Shown here in pieces: positions 751 to 50,904 of a DNA stretch of 64,000 bases (the stretch's first letter is position 1; every line of letters starts with the position of its first letter). The stretch spans positions 1-64,000 of the IMG/VR virus record IMGVR_UViG_3300035099_000047. One strand, written 5' to 3'. This stretch comes from a virus. The notes below the pieces were generated by a model that ran no database searches, was not told where the DNA came from, and saw nothing but the letters and a program-made list of their open reading frames with translations. Made by a program: the position numbers and the translations under genes.

Positions 751-3700
751 CTCGCTCCTTTCTCCATCAGTTCCATCGCCTCCAACTGCTGACCAGTCAT
801 AGGCAAAAGTTCCCTAGCCTCTCTCACTCGTCCCAGCCCCTTGTCCTGACCCAACGCCCGGCTCAAGTAGAACACCACACTAGCAAATGAGTCAGAGATG
901 TCTTTACTCTGATGGTCAACGTGATCTACCTTCTTCCTTTCTCCGTCATAAACCAAACCCAACAATTCTTGAATCATCGGTTGGTAGTCGTAAAATTCCA
1001 CCCGATGTTCGTATATCACCTGGCGTGTAGCTTGATACGCTTCATCTGTGCGATCCACGCTGATGATGCTAGTTTGGAAGCCCAATTTTTCCATGATTTG
1101 CCTGGAATCTGAAGAATTGCCGGTAAACACCTCACTATTACCGCACCTAACCGCAAAGTTCCGATAAATACCCACACTGAGACAATGAACCTCTGAAGCC
1201 ACTTTCAAGAAAGCTACTCTAGTCACTTTGTGATTGAAATCCAGGAACCTCTTTGCTATGTGAAATTTAGGTATACTTTGAACAGAAGCTCCCTTAGAAA
1301 TCAAAACTGCCCGGCTAATATCCCAATCCAACGGATCCAAACCAGATTCAACCATTTTCTCCTTTGCAGCAATAGTTTTAGTTTTGAGTCCTCTCTCCGT
1401 CATTCGAGCCCATTCGTCTTTGGACTTGGTTGCTTTTGTTTTGGCTATACTCTCAATCACCGTCCGTCGATATATGGGGTCTTTCCAACATTGACGTATA
1501 GCTTCAGAATAACTCAAACGTCTTCGGGCTACCCATTCCGGATCGTTCCAAAGCCTTTCATTCATTTCCAAACAATGTTCCCGTGCTTTATCCTTCTGTT
1601 TTTTTGACGTCCCTTTCTTGGAAGCTTCCGATCGCCTTCTAAGGAAATTTTCCCTATAAACAGGGTCTTTCATCATCTCCTTCACCTTCGCTCTACATTT
1701 TTCTATTCCTCTCCTCAAACTGTTCAAAAACATAGGGTCATTAAACCTTTCTCGAATTACTTCAGAATGATAATTAAAATGGTCGTTAAAATTCATCCAC
1801 ACCAAATTTTCCCTACGATTGTCCCTCTTGTTAAAATTCAAATGATGCCTAATGGTTTGTTTCCCGTTCTTTTTACCAAAAACCAATTTCCCACCCATGT
1901 TAGTAGCTGATATTAGACGGTCGCAAAAGCAAACATGGGTATATTTGTATCTCAAAACATTTGGTTGGAAAACCATTTCATATCCATCACATCCAGAATC
2001 CTTATTACTAACAATCCTGTTTAGAGGTTCCAAACTGTCTCCAGGCTTCAAATCAGAGGTCTTTCGCCGCTCCCCACCCTTCAAAATCCATTCATGGTTA
2101 GATGTGCAATCATAGAATGATCCATCATCCAAAGTCACCCGGTACACTGGGCAATTTTTACCAACCACCCCCAGATGAGTAGCTTCACCTTCCACAATGC
2201 AATTGTTTCGTCTGTCAAACGAGTACACAGAAAATGACCTGTCTGTACCGTACTCATCCAATATCTGTTGCAAGGTCAAATTGCGGCCATCTACCAATGG
2301 GACGATGGTATTCGGAGTGAGACATTGAAAGGAGTCAAAACTCACACTCTTAATGGGGTATCCCAACTGATCCCGCAAATAAATGATGAACTCTCTGATC
2401 TTGGAAAAATCAATCGAACCCTGCTTAGGTGGTTGTATCCTCAACATGAAATCAATACATATACGGGGCAAGTTACCCACAGTGCTGGAAACATGACCCA
2501 TTGTAATTCCCACACAATCGTGGCGCTCAGCCAAATCCACATGGACATGCCTCACCGCCATAGGATTCAATTTAGGCTTGACAATGGAGTTCTTGACAGT
2601 TACCAAATCCCTCCATTTCAAATAATCTTGCAATTTAACGGAGGACTTGTCACTGAGAACTACGCTCTCCCGAGTGAAAGGGTGCTGGCGACTCGGATCG
2701 ACACACATCCTCACATGTTCCCTGTGCCGGACAAACAGGCTGTGCGCCAGTGTAGCCACCCCTGCAATATCACGCAATGCGTTTTCAACATCAGCGTCAA
2801 ATGATGCCCTATGCTCCACAGGCACCTCTACAACGCGGGACCCTTCTCTGGGCAACTCGCCATCTTCCAATATTCGGCTACCGCTGATGGCATCCCCTAC
2901 CTCTACCTGGAAAGTCTTACCGCTGTAACCCATCACCTCCCGCTTAACATCCCACAAAGCATAATCGGCTATAAAAGTGCCAGGTTTGTCTCTCACTAAG
3001 GCTATATGGTTTTCCAACCAGCTAGTCTCAACATTGCGACTGCTAATCAATATCATTAAGCCTGGCACAACCCCTTTGTATTGGTACCGGTTTTCCAACC
3101 GACGCTGGACCGCTGTGTAGAGCTTTTGGGCCTGGGAAATAGCAATTCCACCAGGTATGTTAGGCACCCGCATGAAGTTGGCTTCGTCGAGCGCTATTGA
3201 AAACAAATTCAATCCCAAGGCATGCAATTCAGTAGAACCATTTATCACCTGAACTCCATGATCAAAAATCAATCCATCCCTAGCCAATCTGTTGCGCATT
3301 TTCAGCGTAGGGGCATGCTGCTGAAAATAAGGGCTTTGCTCAATAAAATGTTTCAATATACTGTGGACATCCTCAGCTTTGTACTTGAAAATGTTATAGA
3401 TTCCCAGCAGCACTGGGGTACCAGGCATCAATCCAAAGTAAGCGCTAGGACTGCGCAAACAACTCAGCAAGTACAACTTGTAGGCCAAGGCGAAACAGGC
3501 TACTGTTGTCTTGCCTGAACCTATGCAACCTGTTGCTATCAATTCATAATAGTGATTTTGTGGGTCCAAAATTTCCAATAACACTTCCACCCATTTGTCG
3601 TACAAGTATTTTCCAAACTCACCTAAGTAATACGGGTCAAAGAGGAATGTTTCAGGGTCGACTGGCTCACGCAGGTAATCAATATCCAACAAGGACCTAT

Positions 3701-3791
3701 AAGTGGAAGACTGCCCGGTCTCCTCCACCTCCCGAGCTATGCGGAGGGCAAGATTTGCAACTTCGGGGTCTATATGCTCAATCGTACTCAA
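747..3791 (-). CDS. terL: Terminase large subunit, intein-containing
   Basis: Walker A GCIGSGKT, Walker B IALDEANF, motif III ISS, RNase H-like nuclease motifs HVDLA and KDISDS; 403-aa intein insertion. Confidence 0.9.
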   Translation of the reverse strand: MSTIEHIDPEVANLALRIAREVEETGQSSTYRSLLDIDYLREPVDPETFLFDPYYLGEFGKYLYDKWVEVLLEILDPQNHYYELIATGCIGSGKTTVACFALAYKLYLLSCLRSPSAYFGLMPGTPVLLGIYNIFKYKAEDVHSILKHFIEQSPYFQQHAPTLKMRNRLARDGLIFDHGVQVINGSTELHALGLNLFSIALDEANFMRVPNIPGGIAISQAQKLYTAVQRRLENRYQYKGVVPGLMILISSRNVETSWLENHIALVRDKPGTFIADYALWDVKREVMGYSGKTFQVEVGDAISGSRILEDGELPREGSRVVEVPVEHRASFDADVENALRDIAGVATLAHSLFVRHREHVRMCVDPSRQHPFTRESVVLSDKSSVKLQDYLKWRDLVTVKNSIVKPKLNPMAVRHVHVDLAERHDCVGITMGHVSSTVGNLPRICIDFMLRIQPPKQGSIDFSKIREFIIYLRDQLGYPIKSVSFDSFQCLTPNTIVPLVDGRNLTLQQILDEYGTDRSFSVYSFDRRNNCIVEGEATHLGVVGKNCPVYRVTLDDGSFYDCTSNHEWILKGGERRKTSDLKPGDSLEPLNRIVSNKDSGCDGYEMVFQPNVLRYKYTHVCFCDRLISATNMGGKLVFGKKNGKQTIRHHLNFNKRDNRRENLVWMNFNDHFNYHSEVIRERFNDPMFLNSLRRGIEKCRAKVKEMMKDPVYRENFLRRRSEASKKGTSKKQKDKAREHCLEMNERLWNDPEWVARRRLSYSEAIRQCWKDPIYRRTVIESIAKTKATKSKDEWARMTERGLKTKTIAAKEKMVESGLDPLDWDISRAVLISKGASVQSIPKFHIAKRFLDFNHKVTRVAFLKVASEVHCLSVGIYRNFAVRCGNSEVFTGNSSDSRQIMEKLGFQTSIISVDRTDEAYQATRQVIYEHRVEFYDYQPMIQELLGLVYDGERKKVDHVDHQSKDISDSFASVVFYLSRALGQDKGLGRVREARELLPMTGQQLEAMELMEKGAR
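1116..2324 (-). mobile_element. Intein with HNH homing endonuclease in the terminase nuclease domain
   Basis: N-junction SFDSFQ|CLTPNT, block B CTSNHEW, HNH motif HHLNFNKRDNRRENL, C-junction VFTGN|S. Confidence 0.88.
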
Positions 3792-4018
3792 TTCACAATT
3801 TCAGCTATCTTTTCATACTTGGAGTCAAAGTCAAAAGCGGGTAAAACTTCTGACACCCCCTTACCCGAAGCCCCCTCAATTATCCAATCTCCTGACACTT
3901 GTTTCCTAGCTCGGTAAATGCCTTTTGGCAATTGGTACTTCCCTTTTTCACTGCTTTTTTCTCGCACTAAAAACCAACCCAATTTAGAACCCTCCATTTT
4001 CGTTTCCAGGATTAACAT
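3788..4018 (-). CDS. Hypothetical protein
   Basis: ORF coupled to the terL start. Confidence 0.5.
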   Translation of the reverse strand: MLILETKMEGSKLGWFLVREKSSEKGKYQLPKGIYRARKQVSGDWIIEGASGKGVSEVLPAFDFDSKYEKIAEIVN

Positions 4019-4381: not shown

Positions 4382-4693
4382 TCAAACATCGCAACCATAC
4401 CCTCGCAAAGCTTCCAACCCACTTTCTGTGGTTTGATAAACCTGGTTCGGAGGCTTTCCAAAAACTTCCATCAACCCATTAGATAATAAAACATCGAGTA
4501 TCTCTTCCCAACCGGAATATAAAAGAGTTTTGGGCGGTACTGGCCAAAAATCCTCCCTGGTACAACCCTTTATCCCCATTTTCAACAATTCAACCGCTAT
4601 ACCGAACTGGTATGACCTCGGTGCCAACCTATCAACTACTTCACCAAATCTCATCCAACCTTCTCCAACTCTTACAACCGATGGCTTATTCAA
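4382..4693 (-). CDS. Winged-helix-like protein, paralog 2
   Basis: Same C-terminus YQTTESGLEALRGYGCDV. Confidence 0.7.
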   Translation of the reverse strand: MNKPSVVRVGEGWMRFGEVVDRLAPRSYQFGIAVELLKMGIKGCTREDFWPVPPKTLLYSGWEEILDVLLSNGLMEVFGKPPNQVYQTTESGLEALRGYGCDV

Positions 4694-12301: not shown

Positions 12302-12604
12302 CTAGACATTCCCCGCCTTCCCCATAACACAATGAACAATCATCTGGTCATTCACCCCCAACACTCGAAGCATTTCCGACGCATGAATCAGTAAACCAGT
12401 ATATTTATCAACCTGGACATTCATTACCTCTTCAGGAAGTTCCTCCACCCGTTCAAACCCTCCAACAGGCCAATCAAAATCACGAGTCCAATGGTCCCAA
12501 TGATTTTGCAATGCTTTTTTCGACCATTTGCCTGTCAACCACACGTACTCTTCGACACGAGATTGATGACCTGGGCCATGAATAGCATGAAATTTGTACC
12601 ACAT
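12302..12604 (-). CDS. Hypothetical protein
   Basis: ORF on coding strand. Confidence 0.6.
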   Translation of the reverse strand: MWYKFHAIHGPGHQSRVEEYVWLTGKWSKKALQNHWDHWTRDFDWPVGGFERVEELPEEVMNVQVDKYTGLLIHASEMLRVLGVNDQMIVHCVMGKAGNV

Positions 12605-12705
12605 AATTTTATTGTATCCCCTTCGATTAAAATTCGTACCCCATAATTTTAATACGCCCTTTTCAATTAAAATTCGTACCCCATAATTTTATTAGGTACC
12701 CTTCA
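12590..12705. repeat. Three ~39-bp tandem AT-rich repeats
   Basis: ttaaaattcgtaccccataatttta occurs twice, plus a variant overlapping the start of 12302..12604. Confidence 0.8.
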
Positions 12706-12903
12706 ATTCACTGGAATGCCACAACCACAATTAGGGCACACCACTGTGTACTCAGGTGATTTTTCCTCGATAACTTCAGAATAGTGTTCTCCACAAACAC
12801 AAATCACCTTTCCCTGAAGTCTACTAAAAACCACCAGAGCAGCTAACTTCGTACATCCATCAACTTCGCAACGAGTGTGCTCAAATACCACTTTCATCCC
12901 CAA
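12703..12903 (-). CDS. Zn-binding small protein
   Basis: CEVDGC, CVCGEH and CPNCGC motifs. Confidence 0.6.
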   Translation of the reverse strand: MGMKVVFEHTRCEVDGCTKLAALVVFSRLQGKVICVCGEHYSEVIEEKSPEYTVVCPNCGCGIPVN

Positions 12904-22691: not shown

Positions 22692-24314
22692 TTAGGCCAG
22701 CATCAGGGGAGTATCTTCCAAGGCCCGCAGAAACACTCCGCGAGCGCCGTTTATGTCCCGGTCCATCGAGACACCATCCGAACCACGCACACGATATCGG
22801 CTGCCCAAATTCAGGATGATTTCTCCCGACCATGAGCAAGTCTTGGACGTGTACGCTTCGTCCTGAATCAGAACGGTTTTCTGTTCTTGATCGGCCTTGG
22901 CAACCAATCTCAAACGGAAACGAGAATGGGCCAAGCCGAGCATGGCGCGAACGGACTTGTTGCGCAACTTGCGACTCGTTCGACTGGCCATGCGTCCCGC
23001 CGCGAATGGCGGGATGATGATGGTGTCGAATTCATCAAGCAAGAATCGAATCGTCTTCCAATGTAACTCGTCAATCAAGTTGCTGATCTTGCGCCGCATC
23101 CGTCCAATAGCTAAAGTCAAACGACGTTTCGATCGCTTGTCTCCCTTGGCGCGACGTGAAATCAGCCGATCAAGGTGAACGAGAAGACGGACGATTCGTT
23201 GTTGTGCTTGCTCTCCGATCTTGCCGTGAGAATCAAGAGAAAACAGAGTCTGAAACGTTCGGACGCCGGGGTCCAGAGCTACCGTCCGGCCTTTATCAGC
23301 CTTTTGTTGGACGGTAACTCTGAACGGAACGGACAAGAACCAAGCCCCATTGTCCCAGACGAGTCGGGAATCCCGATGCTGCTGGGGAAGCGGTTCCGCC
23401 GCCTTGAGAACTCCGGCAATTCTCAAGTAAACGCCGATGGCGTTATCTTTTTGCTTCACTGCCGATGCGGGAATGAAGCACGATTGTTTCGGGTTTCGCC
23501 TGGAGCGAAAGCGCATCTTGAACGGCTCGCCAGTCTGCTTGGCTTTCTTCTTTTGAGCCGAGAATGCTTCGCACGCATCGCTTACGGCCACGCTCTTGAT
23601 CTGATACGGGACAGCACGCATCCAGTCCGGGCACGTCGCCAAAATCATCTTCTTGACAACAGTCCAATGCGGACGCGGCCCGTCAAGGCCGTTGATATAC
23701 TCGATGGTTTGGTTGTAGCACCAGCGGCTTGCGGCCAACCAACTGCGGAACCTATTCGCTTGTTCCGGTGTCGGATAGAGTCTGATCTTCCTTGATCTTG
23801 TCGCGGTATTTTCTGAGTCCGTGCATTCGCGCAGAGAAGACGGCAAGGATGGCAAGCAAGTCTTGAGTGAGTTCGTCTGCTGGACTGCCTTTCGCAGACT
23901 TACCGAGAACCACGATTTTGCCACCGTTTCGCTCGACCACCCAACGGATGAGTTCGATTCCGAATCTGGCAAGCCGGTCGCTGTGGGCAACCACAATCGT
24001 AAGCTGTTCGCCGCGCAAGCTGCGTTCCAGTAAGGAGCGCAAACCTTTGCGTCTGAAGTTGAGTCCGCTGCCGATGTCGATGACGATTTCACTGCCTGGA
24101 TTGCGTTGTTTGAGCCATTCGACTTGCCGTTCAAGATCGTCTTTTTGTTTGTGGCTCGAAACTCTGGCGTAACAGACAATGGCTGATTTGACGCCGACCC
24201 AGGTATCAATGCCAAACAATTGCTGTCCAGTCGGAGTTCGTTTGCAAGGAATCTGTCCATGATCGGCATACTTTCTGAGTGTGTGTGGGTGCAAACCAGT
24301 GGTATCGACGGCAA
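22692..24314 (-). CDS. tnpB: TnpB, IS607 / pro-Fanzor-like (start uncertain; overlaps tnpA in another frame)
   Basis: KIRLYPT, RuvC-I ALDPGVRTF, IIIPPF at the usual RuvC-II Glu, DEAYTSKTC, RuvC-III DRDINGARG. Confidence 0.9.
   Translation of the reverse strand: MPSIPLVCTHTHSESMPIMDRFLANELRLDSNCLALIPGSASNQPLSVTPEFRATNKKTILNGKSNGSNNAIQAVKSSSTSAADSTSDAKVCAPYWNAACAANSLRLWLPTATGLPDSESNSSVGWSSETVAKSWFSVSLRKAVQQTNSLKTCLPSLPSSLRECTDSENTATRSRKIRLYPTPEQANRFRSWLAASRWCYNQTIEYINGLDGPRPHWTVVKKMILATCPDWMRAVPYQIKSVAVSDACEAFSAQKKKAKQTGEPFKMRFRSRRNPKQSCFIPASAVKQKDNAIGVYLRIAGVLKAAEPLPQQHRDSRLVWDNGAWFLSVPFRVTVQQKADKGRTVALDPGVRTFQTLFSLDSHGKIGEQAQQRIVRLLVHLDRLISRRAKGDKRSKRRLTLAIGRMRRKISNLIDELHWKTIRFLLDEFDTIIIPPFAAGRMASRTSRKLRNKSVRAMLGLAHSRFRLRLVAKADQEQKTVLIQDEAYTSKTCSWSGEIILNLGSRYRVRGSDGVSMDRDINGARGVFLRALEDTPLMLA
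23752..24294 (-). CDS. tnpA: IS607 serine recombinase TnpA
   Basis: MerR-like HTH HPHTLRKYAD, catalytic YARVSS, DIGSGLN, DRLARFG. Confidence 0.93.
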   Translation of the reverse strand: MHPHTLRKYADHGQIPCKRTPTGQQLFGIDTWVGVKSAIVCYARVSSHKQKDDLERQVEWLKQRNPGSEIVIDIGSGLNFRRKGLRSLLERSLRGEQLTIVVAHSDRLARFGIELIRWVVERNGGKIVVLGKSAKGSPADELTQDLLAILAVFSARMHGLRKYRDKIKEDQTLSDTGTSE

Positions 24315-29716: not shown

Positions 29717-29980
29717 TCAGTCCTCATCTTCATCTTCCCAGCCATCCTCATCATCTTCCCAATCTTCATCTTCATCTTCCCAATCTTCATCTTCCCAGTC
29801 CTCCTCGTCCTCCCAGTCCTCCTCATCATCCTCCCAATCCTCTTCGTCCTCCCAGTCCTCTTCGTCCTCCCAGTCCTCCTCATCATCCTCCCAATCTTCA
29901 TCATCATCTTCCCACCCTTCCCAATCCTCATCATCCTCATTCAAGCCGCCCGGATACCCATTTTTTGAAAACAAACTCAT
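29717..29980 (-). CDS. Hyper-acidic (E/D)nW-repeat protein, possible DNA mimic
   Basis: ATGA-coupled to the upstream gene; about ten EDEEDW-type repeats. Confidence 0.65.
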   Translation of the reverse strand: MSLFSKNGYPGGLNEDDEDWEGWEDDDEDWEDDEEDWEDEEDWEDEEDWEDDEEDWEDEEDWEDEDWEDEDEDWEDDEDGWEDEDED

Positions 29981-46960: not shown

Positions 46961-47214
46961 TTTCCTACCAATAGTAGGTCCCCTTTTTATCCAAATTTCA
47001 ACTTCTTTTGCTGTATTTTACCACAGATAGTGCATCGGCGCTCTTGCCAAATCACTGTTCTAGTTAAAGGTTTCCCAATAGTCACTCCCCCTCGATGATG
47101 TTGGATGCCCCCCAATCTGCCACCTTTTTCTCCCACTGAGTAAATTCCTCACACACATGGACACCCATCAAACGGCCATATAATCGTTTCAATTGTTTCC
47201 ACATTTCCAACCCC

Positions 47215-47529
47215 TTAGCAATGACCAGACATCAAAGTGGAACCTGCGCAATAAGGAGCAAGAACCATCCTTTTCGTGCACATGGCGTATGAAGTCAATC
47301 TTTGGCTGAAGACCAAAGGAAGGGTCCTCATCGTTCGTTTTCGGCGGCTGCCGACTATCCGAGGGGGGAGTGAACTTCTGTTGATCGGGAATACACGGAA
47401 CTTGCTGTTCGAGTTGTTTTTTCGATCACAAACAACACTCAAACACACTATAACCACACCAACAAACACTATGAAACTAAGGCGGCCCACAGCTTCATCT
47501 ACCACGTAAACAGGTATGGGCTCTGGCAT
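47215..47529 (-). CDS. Hypothetical membrane protein
   Basis: N-terminal hydrophobic segment. Confidence 0.35.
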   Translation of the reverse strand: MPEPIPVYVVDEAVGRLSFIVFVGVVIVCLSVVCDRKNNSNSKFRVFPINRSSLPPRIVGSRRKRTMRTLPLVFSQRLTSYAMCTKRMVLAPYCAGSTLMSGHC

Positions 47530-47599
47530 GGTTTTGTCCTAATTCTGCTTTTTGTAAGCAACTGTGTGGATAATCCTTTGAAAGACCCAGATGATAACA

Positions 47600-47947
47600 T
47601 CCTTGTCTAGTCTTGTCGGGTCAGGTCTGGTTTCGTCGAGTCGGGTCGCATCTCGCCTGGTCCGGTCCGGTCTAGTCACGTCCTATCATGTCCAATCCGG
47701 TCTTGCCGTGCCCTGGTCCAGCCTGGTTTGGTTGGGTTTTATTTGGTATAATCTTGTTGCACCCAGCCCTATCTAACCCAATTGTGTCGCGTTGCATCGG
47801 TCTGGTCTAGTCTTGTCTGATCCGGTCTCGTCCCGCCCTGTCTCGCCTGGTCAGGTCCAATCGTGTCATGTTCGATCTGGTTTGGTCTTGTTGGGTCAGG
47901 TCTTGTCAGGTCTAACCTTGTCCTGTCAAGTCTGGTCCAATCTAGTT
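47600..47947 (-). repeat. Pentamer array C, (RRY-NN)n, mostly GAC-NN, ~70 units
   Basis: GTC/GCC/ATC/GTT every 5 nt on the plus strand with a variable dinucleotide. Confidence 0.9.
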
Positions 47948-47953
47948 GTGGGG

Positions 47954-48481
47954 TCAAGTATCCTTCATCAGCTCTAACAACTTGCTGGGCTCTATTTGAC
48001 GTAGCCTAGTCCGGCCATCTTGTGAAAGCAAACGCTGTGCCTTATTGTGAAAGCCGCCAGAACTCAGCAATGATTCCATACCCATTTGAGCCGTCCTGAT
48101 ATTCAGTTCCAGTCGTTCCTCTGGGCTCATTTCCGACCGATCAGTCCCAACTGCTATGCGCATCATCCTCTTGGAAAACTTGTGGATGCGCTTGGAACCT
48201 CGATTCAATACCTTTAGTCGGCCCTTTGAATCTAAACACACCCAAGCTTTCTCCTCGGGAAACCACCTCCACGTCACGTTGTAATTGACTTCGGTGTAGT
48301 AAATCGCGTAAGTTACATTGCGGTATCCCGGAGATTTGGAATCGCAGGGCCTACCTACAATTTTGTTCATTTCCTCCAGGGGAATTTTGTCCCCTGGTTT
48401 TCCTTTGCACATGTGTTGAACAGCTGCAGCAGTGTAACTGCTAAGCTCATACATGCGCCTGCCGTCTCCCACGTTACTCAT
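47954..48481 (-). CDS. Partner protein of the RAMP/pentamer locus (putative winged helix + helical)
   Basis: GAAAGGA RBS; lies between arrays B and C. Confidence 0.7.
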   Translation of the reverse strand: MSNVGDGRRMYELSSYTAAAVQHMCKGKPGDKIPLEEMNKIVGRPCDSKSPGYRNVTYAIYYTEVNYNVTWRWFPEEKAWVCLDSKGRLKVLNRGSKRIHKFSKRMMRIAVGTDRSEMSPEERLELNIRTAQMGMESLLSSGGFHNKAQRLLSQDGRTRLRQIEPSKLLELMKDT

Positions 48482-48499
48482 AAATCGATCCTTTCTTTG

Positions 48500-49065
48500 G
48501 TTAAGTCTCGTCTTGTCTTGTTGTGTCGCGTTCAGTTTTGTCTAGTCTAGTCGGGTCAGGTCACATCGGGTTGGGTCTAGTCTGGTCGGGCCCTGTCATG
48601 CCTTGTCTGGTGTGCTTTGATCGCACCGTGCCCCGTTTAATCTAACCGTGTTGTGCTTGATTAGACCTTGCTTTGTCCAGTCAGGTCATATTGCGTCAAG
48701 TCGGGTCTGGTCCAGTCTCGTCAAGCCTTGTCAGGTCCGGTCTCGTCCAGTCATGTCTAGTCACGTCATGTCCAGTCCAATCCTGTCACGTCATGTCCCG
48801 TCTTGTCATGTCTAGTCAAGTCCGGTCCAGTCGAGTCCTGCCCCGTCCTGTCTAGTCACGTCATGTCCAGTCCAGTCTCGCCCAGTCAGGTTTGGTCTGG
48901 TCCGGCATCGTCCAGCTATATCTAGTCCTGTCTTGTCGCGTCACGTCCAGTCCCGTCACGTCCAGTCGCGTCCAGTCTAGTCCTGTCCCGTCTCGCCTCG
49001 CCTAGTCCAGTCATGTCTCGTCATGTCCTGTCAAGCCGTGTCCTGTCAAGCCTTGTCCTGTCATG
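48500..49065 (-). repeat. Pentamer array B, ~113 units in unbroken 5-nt register
   Basis: GTCNN periodicity on the plus strand; no long minus-strand ORF. Confidence 0.92.
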
Positions 49066-49076
49066 ACATACTGAGT

Positions 49077-49655
49077 TCATTCGTCGGTTTGGAAGTCCAA
49101 CTTATCAATCCGGAACCGTCCATTGATACCACCGTTTTCCACCCTCATGGCGCCCCAACCAATGAACTGACCAACACACCGCAGATGATCGTGGATCTGA
49201 TCCGGGGTGATTTTGCCGTCAAAGACGTCAAAATCTCCGTGGGCCACCCATTGATGGAACGTTGGGAAAATGCGAGGTACCCGCTTGGTACCTCCATGCT
49301 TACCGTCGGATGGTACCGGAAGGGGGATGGGATCCACGTCTTCGACCGTCATAGGAGATCCATCAGGTTTAAACAATAACACTGATGAACCAGGTGAAAT
49401 ACCCTTGACAAATCGGCTGGCAAAAGTGGTACGACCCTCCACCTTGCGCCCCAACCATTTGGCTGCAGACAGTAGAGAGTTGGTAACGCAGAAGGAATTC
49501 AGGTAACATTGACCTTCTGGGTTGACCCAAAGTTTCTTCTTCCAAATCCTTTCCTCGAACTGTTCATAAGTCTCCCCGTCCTGCTTTTTGTCCAGCAGAT
49601 ACCTGGAAACCATGAGATCAGCCATCCCGATCACTTGAAAAGTAACCTTCAACAT
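49077..49655 (-). CDS. Stand-alone RAMP (Cas7/Csm3-like) protein
   Basis: N-terminal strand ending G..LM, YLNSFCVTNSLLSAA helix, RIFPTFHQW, C-terminal Gly-rich loop GQFIGWGAMRVENGGINGRF; AAGGAG RBS. Confidence 0.75.
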   Translation of the reverse strand: MLKVTFQVIGMADLMVSRYLLDKKQDGETYEQFEERIWKKKLWVNPEGQCYLNSFCVTNSLLSAAKWLGRKVEGRTTFASRFVKGISPGSSVLLFKPDGSPMTVEDVDPIPLPVPSDGKHGGTKRVPRIFPTFHQWVAHGDFDVFDGKITPDQIHDHLRCVGQFIGWGAMRVENGGINGRFRIDKLDFQTDE

Positions 49656-49761
49656 ACAAACTTCTCCTTGAAAAGGGCTTCACGACTGATTGGTTCTTGA
49701 GTGTCGGCCCTGTGCCGTACTGCTAACCATGTCTTGCGCTTGCCCTTGATTCACCTAACAA

Positions 49762-50014
49762 GTTCTTGTCTGGTCTAGTTTGGTCTAGTCATATCTCGTC
49801 AGGTCTAGTCTGTTCCCGTCCGGTCCTACCGCGTCTTGTCGGGTCACATCTAGTCACGTCCGATTCCGTCGTGTCTTGTCGGGTCACATCTAGTCACGTC
49901 CGGTCAGGCTTGGTCAGATCATGTCTCGTCATGTCAGGTCGGGCCCAGTCTCGTCAGGTCTAGTCTGGTTTGGTTCGGTCCCGTCTTGTCCCGTCCTGTC
50001 AGATCGGGTCAAGC
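49762..50014 (-). repeat. Pentamer array A, ~50 units
   Basis: GTCNN periodicity; internal 30-nt duplication gtcttgtcgggtcacatctagtcacgtccg. Confidence 0.9.
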
Positions 50015-50022
50015 TAATTACT

Positions 50023-50904
50023 TTATTCTACCAAGAATCGTTTACGCAACTCAGCAATTTCATCGGAATCAGCCTCAGCTGCATCTTTACCAGTTTCCAA
50101 TTTTACTCGATGGGTCTCTCCAGAGTATCTGGCCAACTCGTCAGCCAACCTGTTAGCTCGCCATTGAGCTTGAGTTTCACTGTCAAAACAAACCACCCTG
50201 ACCGGATACTTGATCATTTTGTTCAATTGGGCTGGAGTGTAATTCAATCCCATAGTGGCTACGGCTCCAGGTCCAATGGCCCAAGCATCAGCTGGCCCTT
50301 CCACAATTATTATACACTGTCTGGCCAAATCATTCCCGTAAAGCAACTCTTTTGCAGGAATGGCTTCTTCTGCTACTGGAGCATTACTGTACCGTTTGCC
50401 TTTGTCGCCAATAGAGCGGGTTGTCCAGCTAACTGTTTCACCCCGGTACTGAATAGGTATGAATAGGCTCCAACTGTACCTAGCCGCAATCCCTATGCCT
50501 TGCACACCCCACAACCGAGCTATACGGTCCGGATCAAATCCCCTGCCTTGCAGGTACTTGCGATGAGCCTTGGCCAGCAGTCCTACACCAGGAGGAATTT
50601 TAAGCTTACCTGCTAATCGTTCAGCCCATTTACGATTCCGCTCCCAACCAACACTTTTGAGCAAATCATAGCATTCCAGAACGGACAGATGGGTAGTTTC
50701 AGACAGAGCATCAACTAACCGAATTGACCCACATGACCAGCAATTGGCATAACCTCCGGACACATTGATGCCCAGTCGAAACCGGCCACTGCGGGGACTG
50801 CACCTTGGACAGTCGATTTGCACCCATCCCTCACGAGCGTGCTCATGTTGACCCACCGTGCGAGTCGGTATCCTCAATTCGGCAAGTAATGAATCAATCC
50901 TCAT
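50023..50904 (-). CDS. DNA primase (Zn ribbon + TOPRIM)
   Basis: CPRC...CWSCG, IIVEGPADA, CFDSE, KDAAE. Confidence 0.88.
   Translation of the reverse strand: MRIDSLLAELRIPTRTVGQHEHAREGWVQIDCPRCSPRSGRFRLGINVSGGYANCWSCGSIRLVDALSETTHLSVLECYDLLKSVGWERNRKWAERLAGKLKIPPGVGLLAKAHRKYLQGRGFDPDRIARLWGVQGIGIAARYSWSLFIPIQYRGETVSWTTRSIGDKGKRYSNAPVAEEAIPAKELLYGNDLARQCIIIVEGPADAWAIGPGAVATMGLNYTPAQLNKMIKYPVRVVCFDSETQAQWRANRLADELARYSGETHRVKLETGKDAAEADSDEIAELRKRFLVE

What the first reader, a model, noticed from the sequence alone, without database searches (positions are those of the whole stretch)
47600..50014. Solo Cas7/RAMP-like gene interleaved with three long GAC-NN pentamer arrays: candidate phage RNA-guided system with a non-CRISPR guide code
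Seen in sequence: directly after the primase stop, the sense-strand order is array A (~50 units), a 192-aa gene, array B (~113 units), a 175-aa gene, array C (~70 units). Each unit is a conserved triplet (GAC, variants GGC/GAT/AAC/GGT, i.e. RRY) plus a highly variable dinucleotide. Established knowledge: the 192-aa protein has RAMP hallmarks (N-terminal strand, YxxxxxxxxxLxxAA helix, Gly-rich GxxxGxGxxRxxxGGxxGRF loop), and Cas7-type RAMPs polymerise along RNA with a fixed nucleotide step. No cas1/2/3/10 genes or CRISPR array are present in the window. Inference: each RAMP protomer binds one 5-nt unit by its triplet and displays the NN pair, so the NN series spells a gapped target, for example for silencing competing phages or host genes. 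I recall recent reports of phage RAMP + GGY/NN repeat RNAs (VIPR-type) but cannot verify them here; this locus would be a GAC-dominated, unusually long variant.
Basis: partly seen in the sequence, partly recalled or inferred. Interest (0 to 1): 0.97.

Follow-up and report, generated by a model that had tools for sequence, protein, structure and literature searches.

The report
Phage VIPR locus with GAC-type guides
A large phage carries a VIPR system, a CRISPR-related system first described in 2026: a small Cas7-like protein, a helper gene and three guide-RNA arrays built from five-base GAC-NN units. It is a further example of a published kind, unusual only for its very long, unpunctuated arrays.

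Summary
On the minus strand, right after the primase stop, three phased pentamer arrays (51, 116 and 70 units) alternate with a 192-aa and a 175-aa gene. Three positions of each unit are fixed (GAC in 151 of 237 units, purine-purine-pyrimidine in 228). The other two use all four bases.

The 192-aa protein is a Vipr protein. A profile of its family matches the solved SUSP1 Vipr (E 2e-12; hhalign 98.5%), and its model has a Csm3/Cmr4-type Cas7 fold (Z 12). All 27 related loci fetched carry period-5 signal beside the gene, on the gene strand. Between close relatives the NN positions differ at 54-57% of sites and the triplet at 5-10%. The 175-aa protein is a conserved partner with a winged-helix-like N-terminus.

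The system (bioRxiv 10.64898/2026.04.26.720920) and the GAC/NN variant (10.64898/2026.10.21.760802) are both already in print. This scan has also met GAC-type VIPR on other DNA. So this is a new member of a known kind.

The distinctive points are uninterrupted runs of 40-48 units, array B staying in one register for 116 units, and no shared tail. No targets were found, and expression could not be tested.

The parts
49761..50015 (-). Array A: 51 in-phase GAC/RRY-NN units (36 exact GAC). It begins 8 nt after the primase stop and contains a 6-unit block duplicated at an 8-unit offset.
49656..49760 (-). About 105-nt non-periodic stretch between array A and the vipr start. It ends in CTTTTCAAGGAG (ribosome-binding site). 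Its predicted fold is only weakly better than shuffles (z -1.7).
49077..49655 (-). vipr gene (P0001, 192 aa): Cas7-like RAMP, G-loop GWGAMRVENGGINGRF.
48493..49072 (-). Array B: 116 units in one unbroken 5-nt register (79 exact GAC). It runs from 4 nt after the vipr stop to 11 nt before the next start codon.
48608..48672 (-). Degenerate block inside array B (units 80-92). The register is kept and the triplets are RRY, but none is GAC. It may delimit guides or be a decayed segment. It contains GGTTAGAT.
47954..48481 (-). Accessory gene (P0002, 175 aa): conserved partner of this Vipr clade, with a winged-helix-like N-terminal domain and a helical C-terminal part. Candidate vap.
47598..47947 (-). 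Array C: 70 units (36 exact GAC, 68 RRY) with two 1-nt register slips and a degenerate middle block (about 47703-47798).

Best explanation
This is a VIPR (Viral Interference Programmable Repeat) system of the non-canonical GAC/NN class. It sits in the replication-gene module of a large phage.

Shown here:
- the Vipr homology and Cas7-like fold of the protein;
- the 3-fixed + 2-variable pentamer arrays on the gene strand;
- the same layout in relatives;
- a conserved accessory gene;
- fast NN turnover against a conserved triplet.

Inferred by homology with SUSP1 VIPR (bioRxiv 10.64898/2026.04.26.720920 and .720927):
- the arrays are transcribed with the operon;
- one Vipr protomer binds each 5-nt unit, with two neighbouring protomers sequestering the GAC (more broadly RRY) triplet through the G-loop, strand beta-1 and the thumb;
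- the NN pairs are presented to base-pair with double-stranded DNA that reads NN-x-NN-x (one skipped base per unit);
- binding silences genes of competing phages or other mobile elements;
- the winged-helix-like accessory protein assists at the DNA.

The G-loop residues that read G1 and G2 in SUSP1 (D177, W178) are Ala/Ser-Met in this clade. That fits a changed triplet specificity.
For: (1) Homology. A profile of 128 family members hits only 'SUSP1 Vipr protein' (36pp_D) in the PDB sequence set at a meaningful level, at E 2.3e-12 over 160 of 188 positions. A narrower profile gives E 0.034. hhalign against the SUSP1 Vipr gene product gives probability 98.5%, E 4e-15, over 169 columns.

(2) Fold. 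The AF2 model has pLDDT 90.9. Top matches are all Cas7-family RAMPs: Csm3, Cmr4, type VII Cas7 and Cas7-11 domains. Foldseek E is 9e-6; VIA Z is 12.1, 12.0 and 11.9 with 150-158 residues aligned.

(3) Arrays. See the observation check.

(4) Co-occurrence. All 27 related loci fetched (IMG/VR, JGI, Logan, NCBI, one Paracoccus genome) show period-5 signal next to the vipr homologue, read on the gene strand. Most have clear runs of 8 or more units; L014 and L023 give only short runs.

(5) The closest relative, L027 (62% identity), has canonical vrRNAs of 14-17 GAC-NN units. Each is followed by a roughly 35-nt conserved tail with a hairpin.

(6) Between loci whose vipr genes are 86-97% identical in DNA, aligned array units differ at 5-10% of triplet positions and 54-57% of NN positions.

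(7) The G-loop motif tracks the fixed triplet. It is G[FW]G[SA]MR[VK].[NG]GG in all 23 related loci with GAC or GAA arrays and in the window. It is GIGRFRPENGG in all 3 CGC loci, and GVGDWRPR-FG in SUSP1 (GGT).

(8) P0002 homologues sit beside vipr in 12 loci. The best viral fold match (E 6.5e-6) is a 267-aa protein of Gordonia phage Trine. That length matches gp40, the gene directly downstream of Trine's Vipr homologue.

(9) GAC/NN arrays beside Vipr-like folds are reported in bioRxiv 10.64898/2026.10.21.760802.

(10) The record is an IMG/VR virus record, and the locus lies among primase, helicase and polymerase genes.
Against:
- No shared 3' tail and no recurring inter-guide spacer were found in the window's arrays. 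Guide boundaries are therefore unknown, and the architecture departs from the 9-16-unit + tail vrRNA of SUSP1 and of the closest relative.
- 36% of units are not exact GAC. Relatives are nearly all exact. In SUSP1, substitutions in the triplet are reported to abolish silencing.
- The 1-nt skip rule has not been tested for any GAC-type system.
- The covariation between G-loop and triplet is confounded by phylogeny: each triplet type is one clade.
Confidence: 0.9

Rival explanations
1. The locus is a VIPR system in decay or runaway expansion. Only part of the 237 units still makes working guides. The rest are duplicated and mutated leftovers kept in register by slippage, and the lack of tails means most of the RNA is not processed into functional vrRNAs.
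For: - Only 64% of units are exact GAC (51% in array C), against nearly 100% in L027 and L004.
- There are fully degenerate blocks of 13 and about 19 units.
- Block duplications exceed shuffled controls: 8 repeated 4-unit NN words against 0.8 expected.
- No shared tail was found.
- The seeds searched found no targets.
Against: - 96% of units keep purine-purine-pyrimidine, and 92% of departures from GAC are transitions, while NN uses all bases. That looks like constraint rather than free decay.
- Array B keeps one register for 580 nt with no indel.
- Most NN words are unique.
- vipr and the accessory gene are intact and conserved.
Confidence: 0.2
2. The pentamer arrays act as DNA rather than RNA. 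They could be iterons or an origin-like, bent or easily unwound region bound by the winged-helix protein in the replication module, with the RAMP protein doing something unrelated.
For: The locus lies between primase and helicase/initiator-like genes. P0002 has a winged-helix-like domain. A 5-nt period is half a DNA turn.
Against: - In all 27 related loci the repeat reads on the vipr strand.
- The fixed triplet tracks the Vipr G-loop motif.
- In the homologous SUSP1 system the repeats are expressed as RNAs that co-purify with Vipr, and they are seen bound in cryo-EM.
- Relatives carry the cassette in unrelated neighbourhoods: next to an integrase and a LexA-like gene in L026, and next to a portal gene in L002.
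Confidence: 0.03
3. The arrays are translated or are chance low-complexity sequence.
For: Short ORFs of 55-65 aa run through the arrays on the plus strand.
Against: - A 5-nt period cannot hold a reading frame.
- These ORFs are not called in relatives.
- No other such run exists in the 172-kb record.
Confidence: 0.01

Closest known systems
Type II VIPR of Escherichia phage SUSP1 and the Pseudomonas fulva prophage clade (Vipr + Vap1 + vrRNAs; bioRxiv 10.64898/2026.04.26.720920, 10.64898/2026.04.26.720927; PDB 36pp)
   Same: - Homologous roughly 190-aa Vipr protein with a Cas7-like fold and G-loop.
- 5-nt units with three fixed and two hypervariable bases, on the gene strand, in the gaps before and after vipr.
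- A small accessory gene directly downstream.
- Phage-encoded, beside replication genes.
- No self-targets in the own genome.
   Different: - The fixed triplet is GAC (RRY overall), not GGY.
- SUSP1's G1/G2-reading residues D177, W178 and R138 are Ala, Met and Phe here.
- Arrays have 51-116 units with no shared tail, against 9-16 units plus a pseudoknot tail.
- The accessory protein shows no detectable sequence similarity to Vap1.
Non-canonical VIPR arrays (GAC/NN, CAC/NN and others) reported from language-model entropy periodicity (bioRxiv 10.64898/2026.10.21.760802, section 2.3)
   Same: GAC/NN pentamers next to a protein with a Vipr-like fold. This is the class the window belongs to.
   Different: That report is a survey of 21 clusters and 6,318 sequences, and its figures are not readable here. 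The text I could read says nothing about runs of 40-116 units without tails, about the accessory gene, or about which protein residues change with the triplet.
'Staggered' vrRNA arrays mentioned in the first VIPR paper (its fig. S18)
   Same: Continuous arrays in which one vrRNA ends where the next begins, with no long spacers.
   Different: Only the legend is available. The type, triplet and length of those arrays could not be compared, so equivalence is untested.
Class 1 CRISPR backbone subunits Cas7 (Csm3, Cmr4, type VII Cas7)
   Same: RRM core, Gly-rich loop and thumb hairpin. Best structural matches have Z 12. Both polymerise along a guide RNA at a fixed step.
   Different: No CRISPR repeats, no Cas10, Cas5 or Cas6 partners, and no Pfam RAMP hit. 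The step is 5 nt with 2 guide bases, not 6 nt with 5.

Membership tests
VIPR system | Protein homologous to Vipr (reference: SUSP1 Vipr, PDB 36pp) | tested here: met
   Profile A2 against PDB sequences: E 2.3e-12, and the only meaningful hit. hhalign: probability 98.5%, E 4e-15.
VIPR system | Minimal RAMP fold: single RRM core, glycine-rich loop, thumb | tested here: met
   Model pLDDT 90.9. Cas7-family matches at Z 9-12 over residues 1-192. The G-loop is invariant in the clade. The thumb is inferred from the beta-hairpin at residues 108-133 of the model and was not examined in 3D.
VIPR system | Tandem 5-nt units with three conserved and two hypervariable positions, flanking vipr on its strand | tested here: met
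   for the window. for the 27 related loci. for NN hypervariability between close relatives.
VIPR system | Canonical GGY as the fixed triplet | tested here: not met
   The triplet is GAC in 64% of units and RRY in 96%. The first paper allows 'a related consensus', and GAC/NN is listed as a non-canonical VIPR motif in 10.64898/2026.10.21.760802. So this excludes the canonical subclass, not the family.
VIPR system | vrRNA of about 9-16 units capped by a conserved, structured 3' tail | tested here: not met
   The window has in-phase runs of 40-48 units, and array B has 116 units in one register. The non-repeat and degenerate blocks share no motif above shuffles. The feature is met in relatives L027, L001, L012 and L004.
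VIPR system | Adjacent accessory (vap) gene with a predicted DNA-interaction domain | tested here: inconclusive
   P0002 is a conserved partner in 12 loci. Its residues 12-84 match winged-helix domains only at a middling level: PurR Z 7.4, NaeI Z 7.2, MarR by Foldseek at E 0.045 or weaker. The best viral match equals in length the gene downstream of vipr in Gordonia phage Trine. No similarity to Vap1. Which of vap1-6 it is, if any, cannot be told.
VIPR system | Encoded by a virus or provirus, outside CRISPR-cas loci | tested here: met
   IMG/VR virus record, CheckV 78% complete. Phage replication genes surround the locus. No CRISPR-like repeat in the window. cas genes were not searched genome-wide.
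VIPR system | Arrays expressed as small RNAs that co-purify with Vipr | not testable with these tools
VIPR system | NN series matches natural DNA targets under the 1-nt skip rule and does not match the own genome | tested here: inconclusive
   No self-match above the 0-, 2- and 3-nt skip controls in the 172-kb record or in the related loci. Seven 9-unit seeds in IMG/VR gave 0-2 independent exact hits each, none extending beyond the seed. Two 10-unit seeds in metagenomes gave nothing. Only about a third of the units were used as seeds, and exact matching was required.
CRISPR-Cas class 1 (Cas7 backbone) | CRISPR repeat-spacer array and partner cas genes (Cas5/Cas6/Cas10 or Cas8/Cas3) | tested here: not met
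   No CRISPR-type repeats in the window. The neighbours are primase, the winged-helix-like gene and small ORFs. No Pfam RAMP family hit.

The most novel reading that the evidence does not exclude
The window, and to a lesser degree relative L004, may show a tail-less, continuous-register form of VIPR array. In it, 50-116 units would be coated as one long Vipr filament, or cut at weak non-GAC (RRY) units. Guides would then be overlapping or sliding segments rather than discrete 9-16-unit genes. Together with the G-loop change from D-W to [A/S]-M, this would give a readable protein code for the scaffold triplet and a different route of guide biogenesis.
Probability: 0.25. Interest if true: 0.55.

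Novelty: new member of a known kind. Interest (0 to 1): 0.35.

Why it matters
VIPR is a months-old class of RNA-guided DNA-binding systems, and only the GGY type has been studied at the bench. This locus is a clean GAC-type example with 27 related loci. From it come three testable points:
- The scaffold rule looks like purine-purine-pyrimidine rather than GGY.
- Two G-loop residues track the triplet across clades. They are candidate specificity determinants.
- Guide arrays can run for more than 100 units without the tail that caps SUSP1 guides. This raises the question of how guide length is set.

None of this changes the kind of system. It widens the known range of one.

Tried and rejected
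- Pfam, PHROGs and PADLOC scans of P0001 and P0002 gave nothing useful: PUA_3 at E 0.022, an unnamed PHROG, and Cas2b at E 0.046, taken as noise.
- Rfam on 47000-50500 found no family and no hammerhead.
- The promoter/terminator scan gave no more than shuffles.
- A tail search inside the window found no shared motif above shuffles. The only common feature is a short GGTTAG word in three non-GAC blocks. Folds of the post-array stretches are weak (z -1.7 and -2.6).
- tblastn of P0001 and of the Paracoccus homologue against GenBank phages found no match.
- A word-index search with P0002 found only itself. Its relatives were found through neighbouring ORFs instead.
- Target hunting is described under the membership test. 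All exact seed hits stopped at the seed edges and are taken as chance.
- Complex prediction was not used, because the report does not claim a new protein-protein contact.
- Which of the seven VIPR types this clade belongs to could not be determined. The paper's figures and data tables are not held, and cluster look-ups gave no accessions.
Full report
**What is there.**
On the minus strand the window reads: primase (50904..50023; PHROG 47, E 3e-32), array A, a 192-aa gene (P0001), array B, a 175-aa gene (P0002), array C, then a 104-aa ORF. Parsing the arrays unit by unit gives 51, 116 and 70 pentamers. Array A starts 8 nt after the primase stop. Array B fills the whole gap between the two genes and never leaves its register. 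Array C slips by one base twice.

Identity at lag 5 is 0.46-0.59 against about 0.2 at other lags. Positions 1-3 read G, A and C in 84-86% of units, and almost all the rest are the transition partner. That gives 228 of 237 units as RRY, with 100 transitions against 9 transversions. Positions 4-5 use all four bases. No comparable run exists elsewhere in the 172-kb record on either strand.

**The protein.**
P0001 has 686 relatives at E 0.001 or better among 50%-identity cluster representatives and 28 closer ones. None has a Pfam domain. A profile of 128 of them finds one meaningful entry in the PDB sequence set, 'SUSP1 Vipr protein' (36pp_D), at E 2.3e-12. hhalign against the SUSP1 gene product fetched from GenBank gives 98.5% probability and E 4e-15 over 169 columns. 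The AF2 model (pLDDT 90.9) matches Csm3, Cmr4, type VII Cas7 and Cas7-11 domains at Z 9-12, and Foldseek E goes down to 9e-6. So P0001 is a Vipr protein with a Cas7-like RAMP fold.

**What is known.**
VIPR was described in April 2026 (bioRxiv 10.64898/2026.04.26.720920). It consists of Vipr, an accessory vap gene, and vrRNAs of 9-16 GGY-NN units capped by a tail. The NN pairs read double-stranded DNA with one skipped base per unit. Natural targets are satellites, prophages and other VIPR systems. Seven types are named, with 'a related consensus' in some, and with staggered or ribozyme-punctuated arrays.

The companion structure paper (10.64898/2026.04.26.720927) shows one protomer per unit. 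G1 is read by H17 and D177. G2 is read by R138 and W178. Y3 sits in a pocket that includes R179. A third preprint (10.64898/2026.10.21.760802) lists GAC/NN and CAC/NN among non-canonical VIPR motifs found beside Vipr-like folds. Earlier follow-ups of this scan reached the same conclusion for GAC- or GAY-type loci in other genomes.

**Relatives.**
I fetched 27 loci encoding relatives of P0001. Every one shows period-5 signal next to the gene, read on the gene strand. The triplet is GAC in most, GAA in L002, and CGC in L022, L024 and L025 (the last is a Paracoccus genome).

The closest relative, L027 (62% identity), has three discrete guides of 14-17 exact GAC-NN units. Each ends in units with NN = AA, AA (or AT), TC (or TT), followed by a roughly 35-nt conserved tail with a hairpin. 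L001 has three single guides of 13-15 units, one in each gap. L004 has runs of 26-39 units separated by a conserved roughly 30-nt spacer.

In pairs of loci whose vipr genes are 86-97% identical in DNA, aligned array units differ at 5-10% of triplet positions and at 54-57% of NN positions. So the guide letters are replaced far faster than the flanking gene diverges, while the scaffold is kept. This is the published VIPR signature, and it rejects neutral slippage.

**Protein-triplet link.**
In alignments with SUSP1, SUSP1 D177-W178 correspond to A169-M170 of P0001, R179 to the invariant R171, and R138 to the invariant F130.

Across the fetched loci the G-loop motif tracks the triplet:
- GAC or GAA: G[FW]G[SA]MR[VK].[NG]GG in all 23 related loci and in the window.
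- CGC: GIGRFRPENGG in all 3 loci.
- SUSP1 (GGT): GVGDWRPR-FG.

F or Y at the R138 position is common to the GAC, GAA and CGC clades, so it does not by itself explain the triplet. This pattern is a correlation across clades. It is not an independent test.

**The accessory gene.**
P0002 has no Pfam, PHROG or PADLOC match. Homologues of 163-197 aa lie beside vipr in 12 loci, usually downstream and once upstream. Its model (pLDDT 89.5) has an N-terminal helix-strand-helix ... helix-hairpin domain. That domain aligns to winged-helix domains at middling scores (PurR Z 7.4, NaeI Z 7.2; MarR-type by Foldseek at E 0.045 or weaker). The C-terminal half is a helical bundle.

Predicted-structure libraries give three viral clusters at TM 0.73-0.77. 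They also give a 267-aa protein of Gordonia phage Trine as the best BFVD hit (E 6.5e-6). Trine carries a Vipr homologue (35% identity to SUSP1), and the gene directly downstream is annotated as 267 aa. The profile alignment to it is weak (probability 27%, E 7e-4).

P0002 shows no detectable sequence similarity to SUSP1 Vap1. I read it as the vap of this clade, probably DNA-binding. Which numbered vap it is cannot be told.

**What is unusual here.**
Relatives mostly have runs of 10-19 units. The window has runs of 48 and 40 units, and array B holds one register for 116 units.

The non-repeat stretch after array A, the degenerate blocks in B (units 80-92) and C (units 30-48), and the ends of B and C share no motif above shuffles. 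The only common feature is a short GGTTAG word. No Rfam family, including hammerhead, is found.

Only 64% of units are exact GAC. Repeated NN words exceed shuffles, for example a 6-unit block duplicated 8 units apart in A, but most of the NN series is unique. Guide boundaries are therefore undefined. Three readings fit:
- a long continuous filament;
- processing at weak units, perhaps like the 'staggered' arrays of the first paper;
- partial decay.

**Targets.**
[quoted passage not shown] The same holds for the related loci. Absence of self-targets agrees with the published systems.

Seven 9-unit seeds scanned against IMG/VR gave 0-2 independent exact hits each. All stopped at the seed edges. 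Two 10-unit seeds against metagenome contigs gave none. These scans needed exact matches and used about a third of the units, so targets remain unknown rather than absent. Expression data could not be obtained.

**Verdict.**
It is a new member of a known, very recent kind: a GAC-type VIPR.

Three points are new to what I could read in the papers, and all need experiments:
- the RRY pattern of the scaffold;
- the G-loop residues that track the triplet;
- the very long tail-less arrays.

Confidence that this is a VIPR system is about 0.9. The molecular steps (RNA binding, gapped pairing, silencing of rival elements) are inferred from SUSP1 and are not shown here.

Noticed in passing
L038:3070-3400 (Gordonia phage Trine, MH271318.1): The annotated 267-aa gp40 downstream of Trine's Vipr homologue appears to run through two GGC-NN guide arrays of about 12 units. 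These are flanked by three copies of a tRNA-like element (GGTTCGACTCC T-arm motif; ARAGORN calls one a tRNA with an odd anticodon). An in-frame ATG at 3382 would give a 168-aa protein the size of P0002, and the profile match starts after it. This is likely an over-extended gene call, and it suggests tRNA-like processing signals between guides.
   Followed up: partly
L022, L024:2510-2900 and 3496-4010, L025:2780-2990 and 3555-3660: More distant relatives of P0001 (33-34% identity), including one in a Paracoccus litorisediminis genome, are flanked by CGC-NN arrays. Their G-loop is GIGRFRPENGG. In L025 each guide ends in three or four CGC-AA units.
   Followed up: partly
L002:3909-4000 and 4570-4650: A 43%-identical relative on a 647-kb metagenome contig uses GAA-NN units (11-13 per guide) with the same [A]M G-loop pair. 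Position 3 of the triplet is therefore not always a pyrimidine in this clade.
   Followed up: no
window 47598-50015: The second guide base (N5) is poor in C (34 of 237), and the dinucleotide TC occurs once. Relative L004 is rich in TC and GC units, so this is not a family rule.
   Followed up: no
window 49700-49730, 48630-48660, 47750-47780 (minus strand): The three non-GAC blocks each contain GGTTAG followed a few bases later by a G-rich stretch (GGCAC / GGGGCAC / GGGCTGGG). This is too short to score, but it is the only word they share.
   Followed up: partly
window 22692-24314 (-): A 540-aa ORF matches phage transposase family phrog_506 (E 9e-42). It sits inside the replication/modification gene region.
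   Followed up: no
window 12590-12708 and 29718-29914: A 40-nt unit is repeated three times in a gap between genes. A long imperfect 9/18/21/57-nt coding repeat gives an acidic, low-complexity protein segment (TRF).
   Followed up: no
L026:1309-3372: In a 60%-identical relative the VIPR cassette sits directly after a tyrosine integrase and a LexA-like repressor gene. That is a temperate element, unlike the replication-module setting in the window.
   Followed up: no
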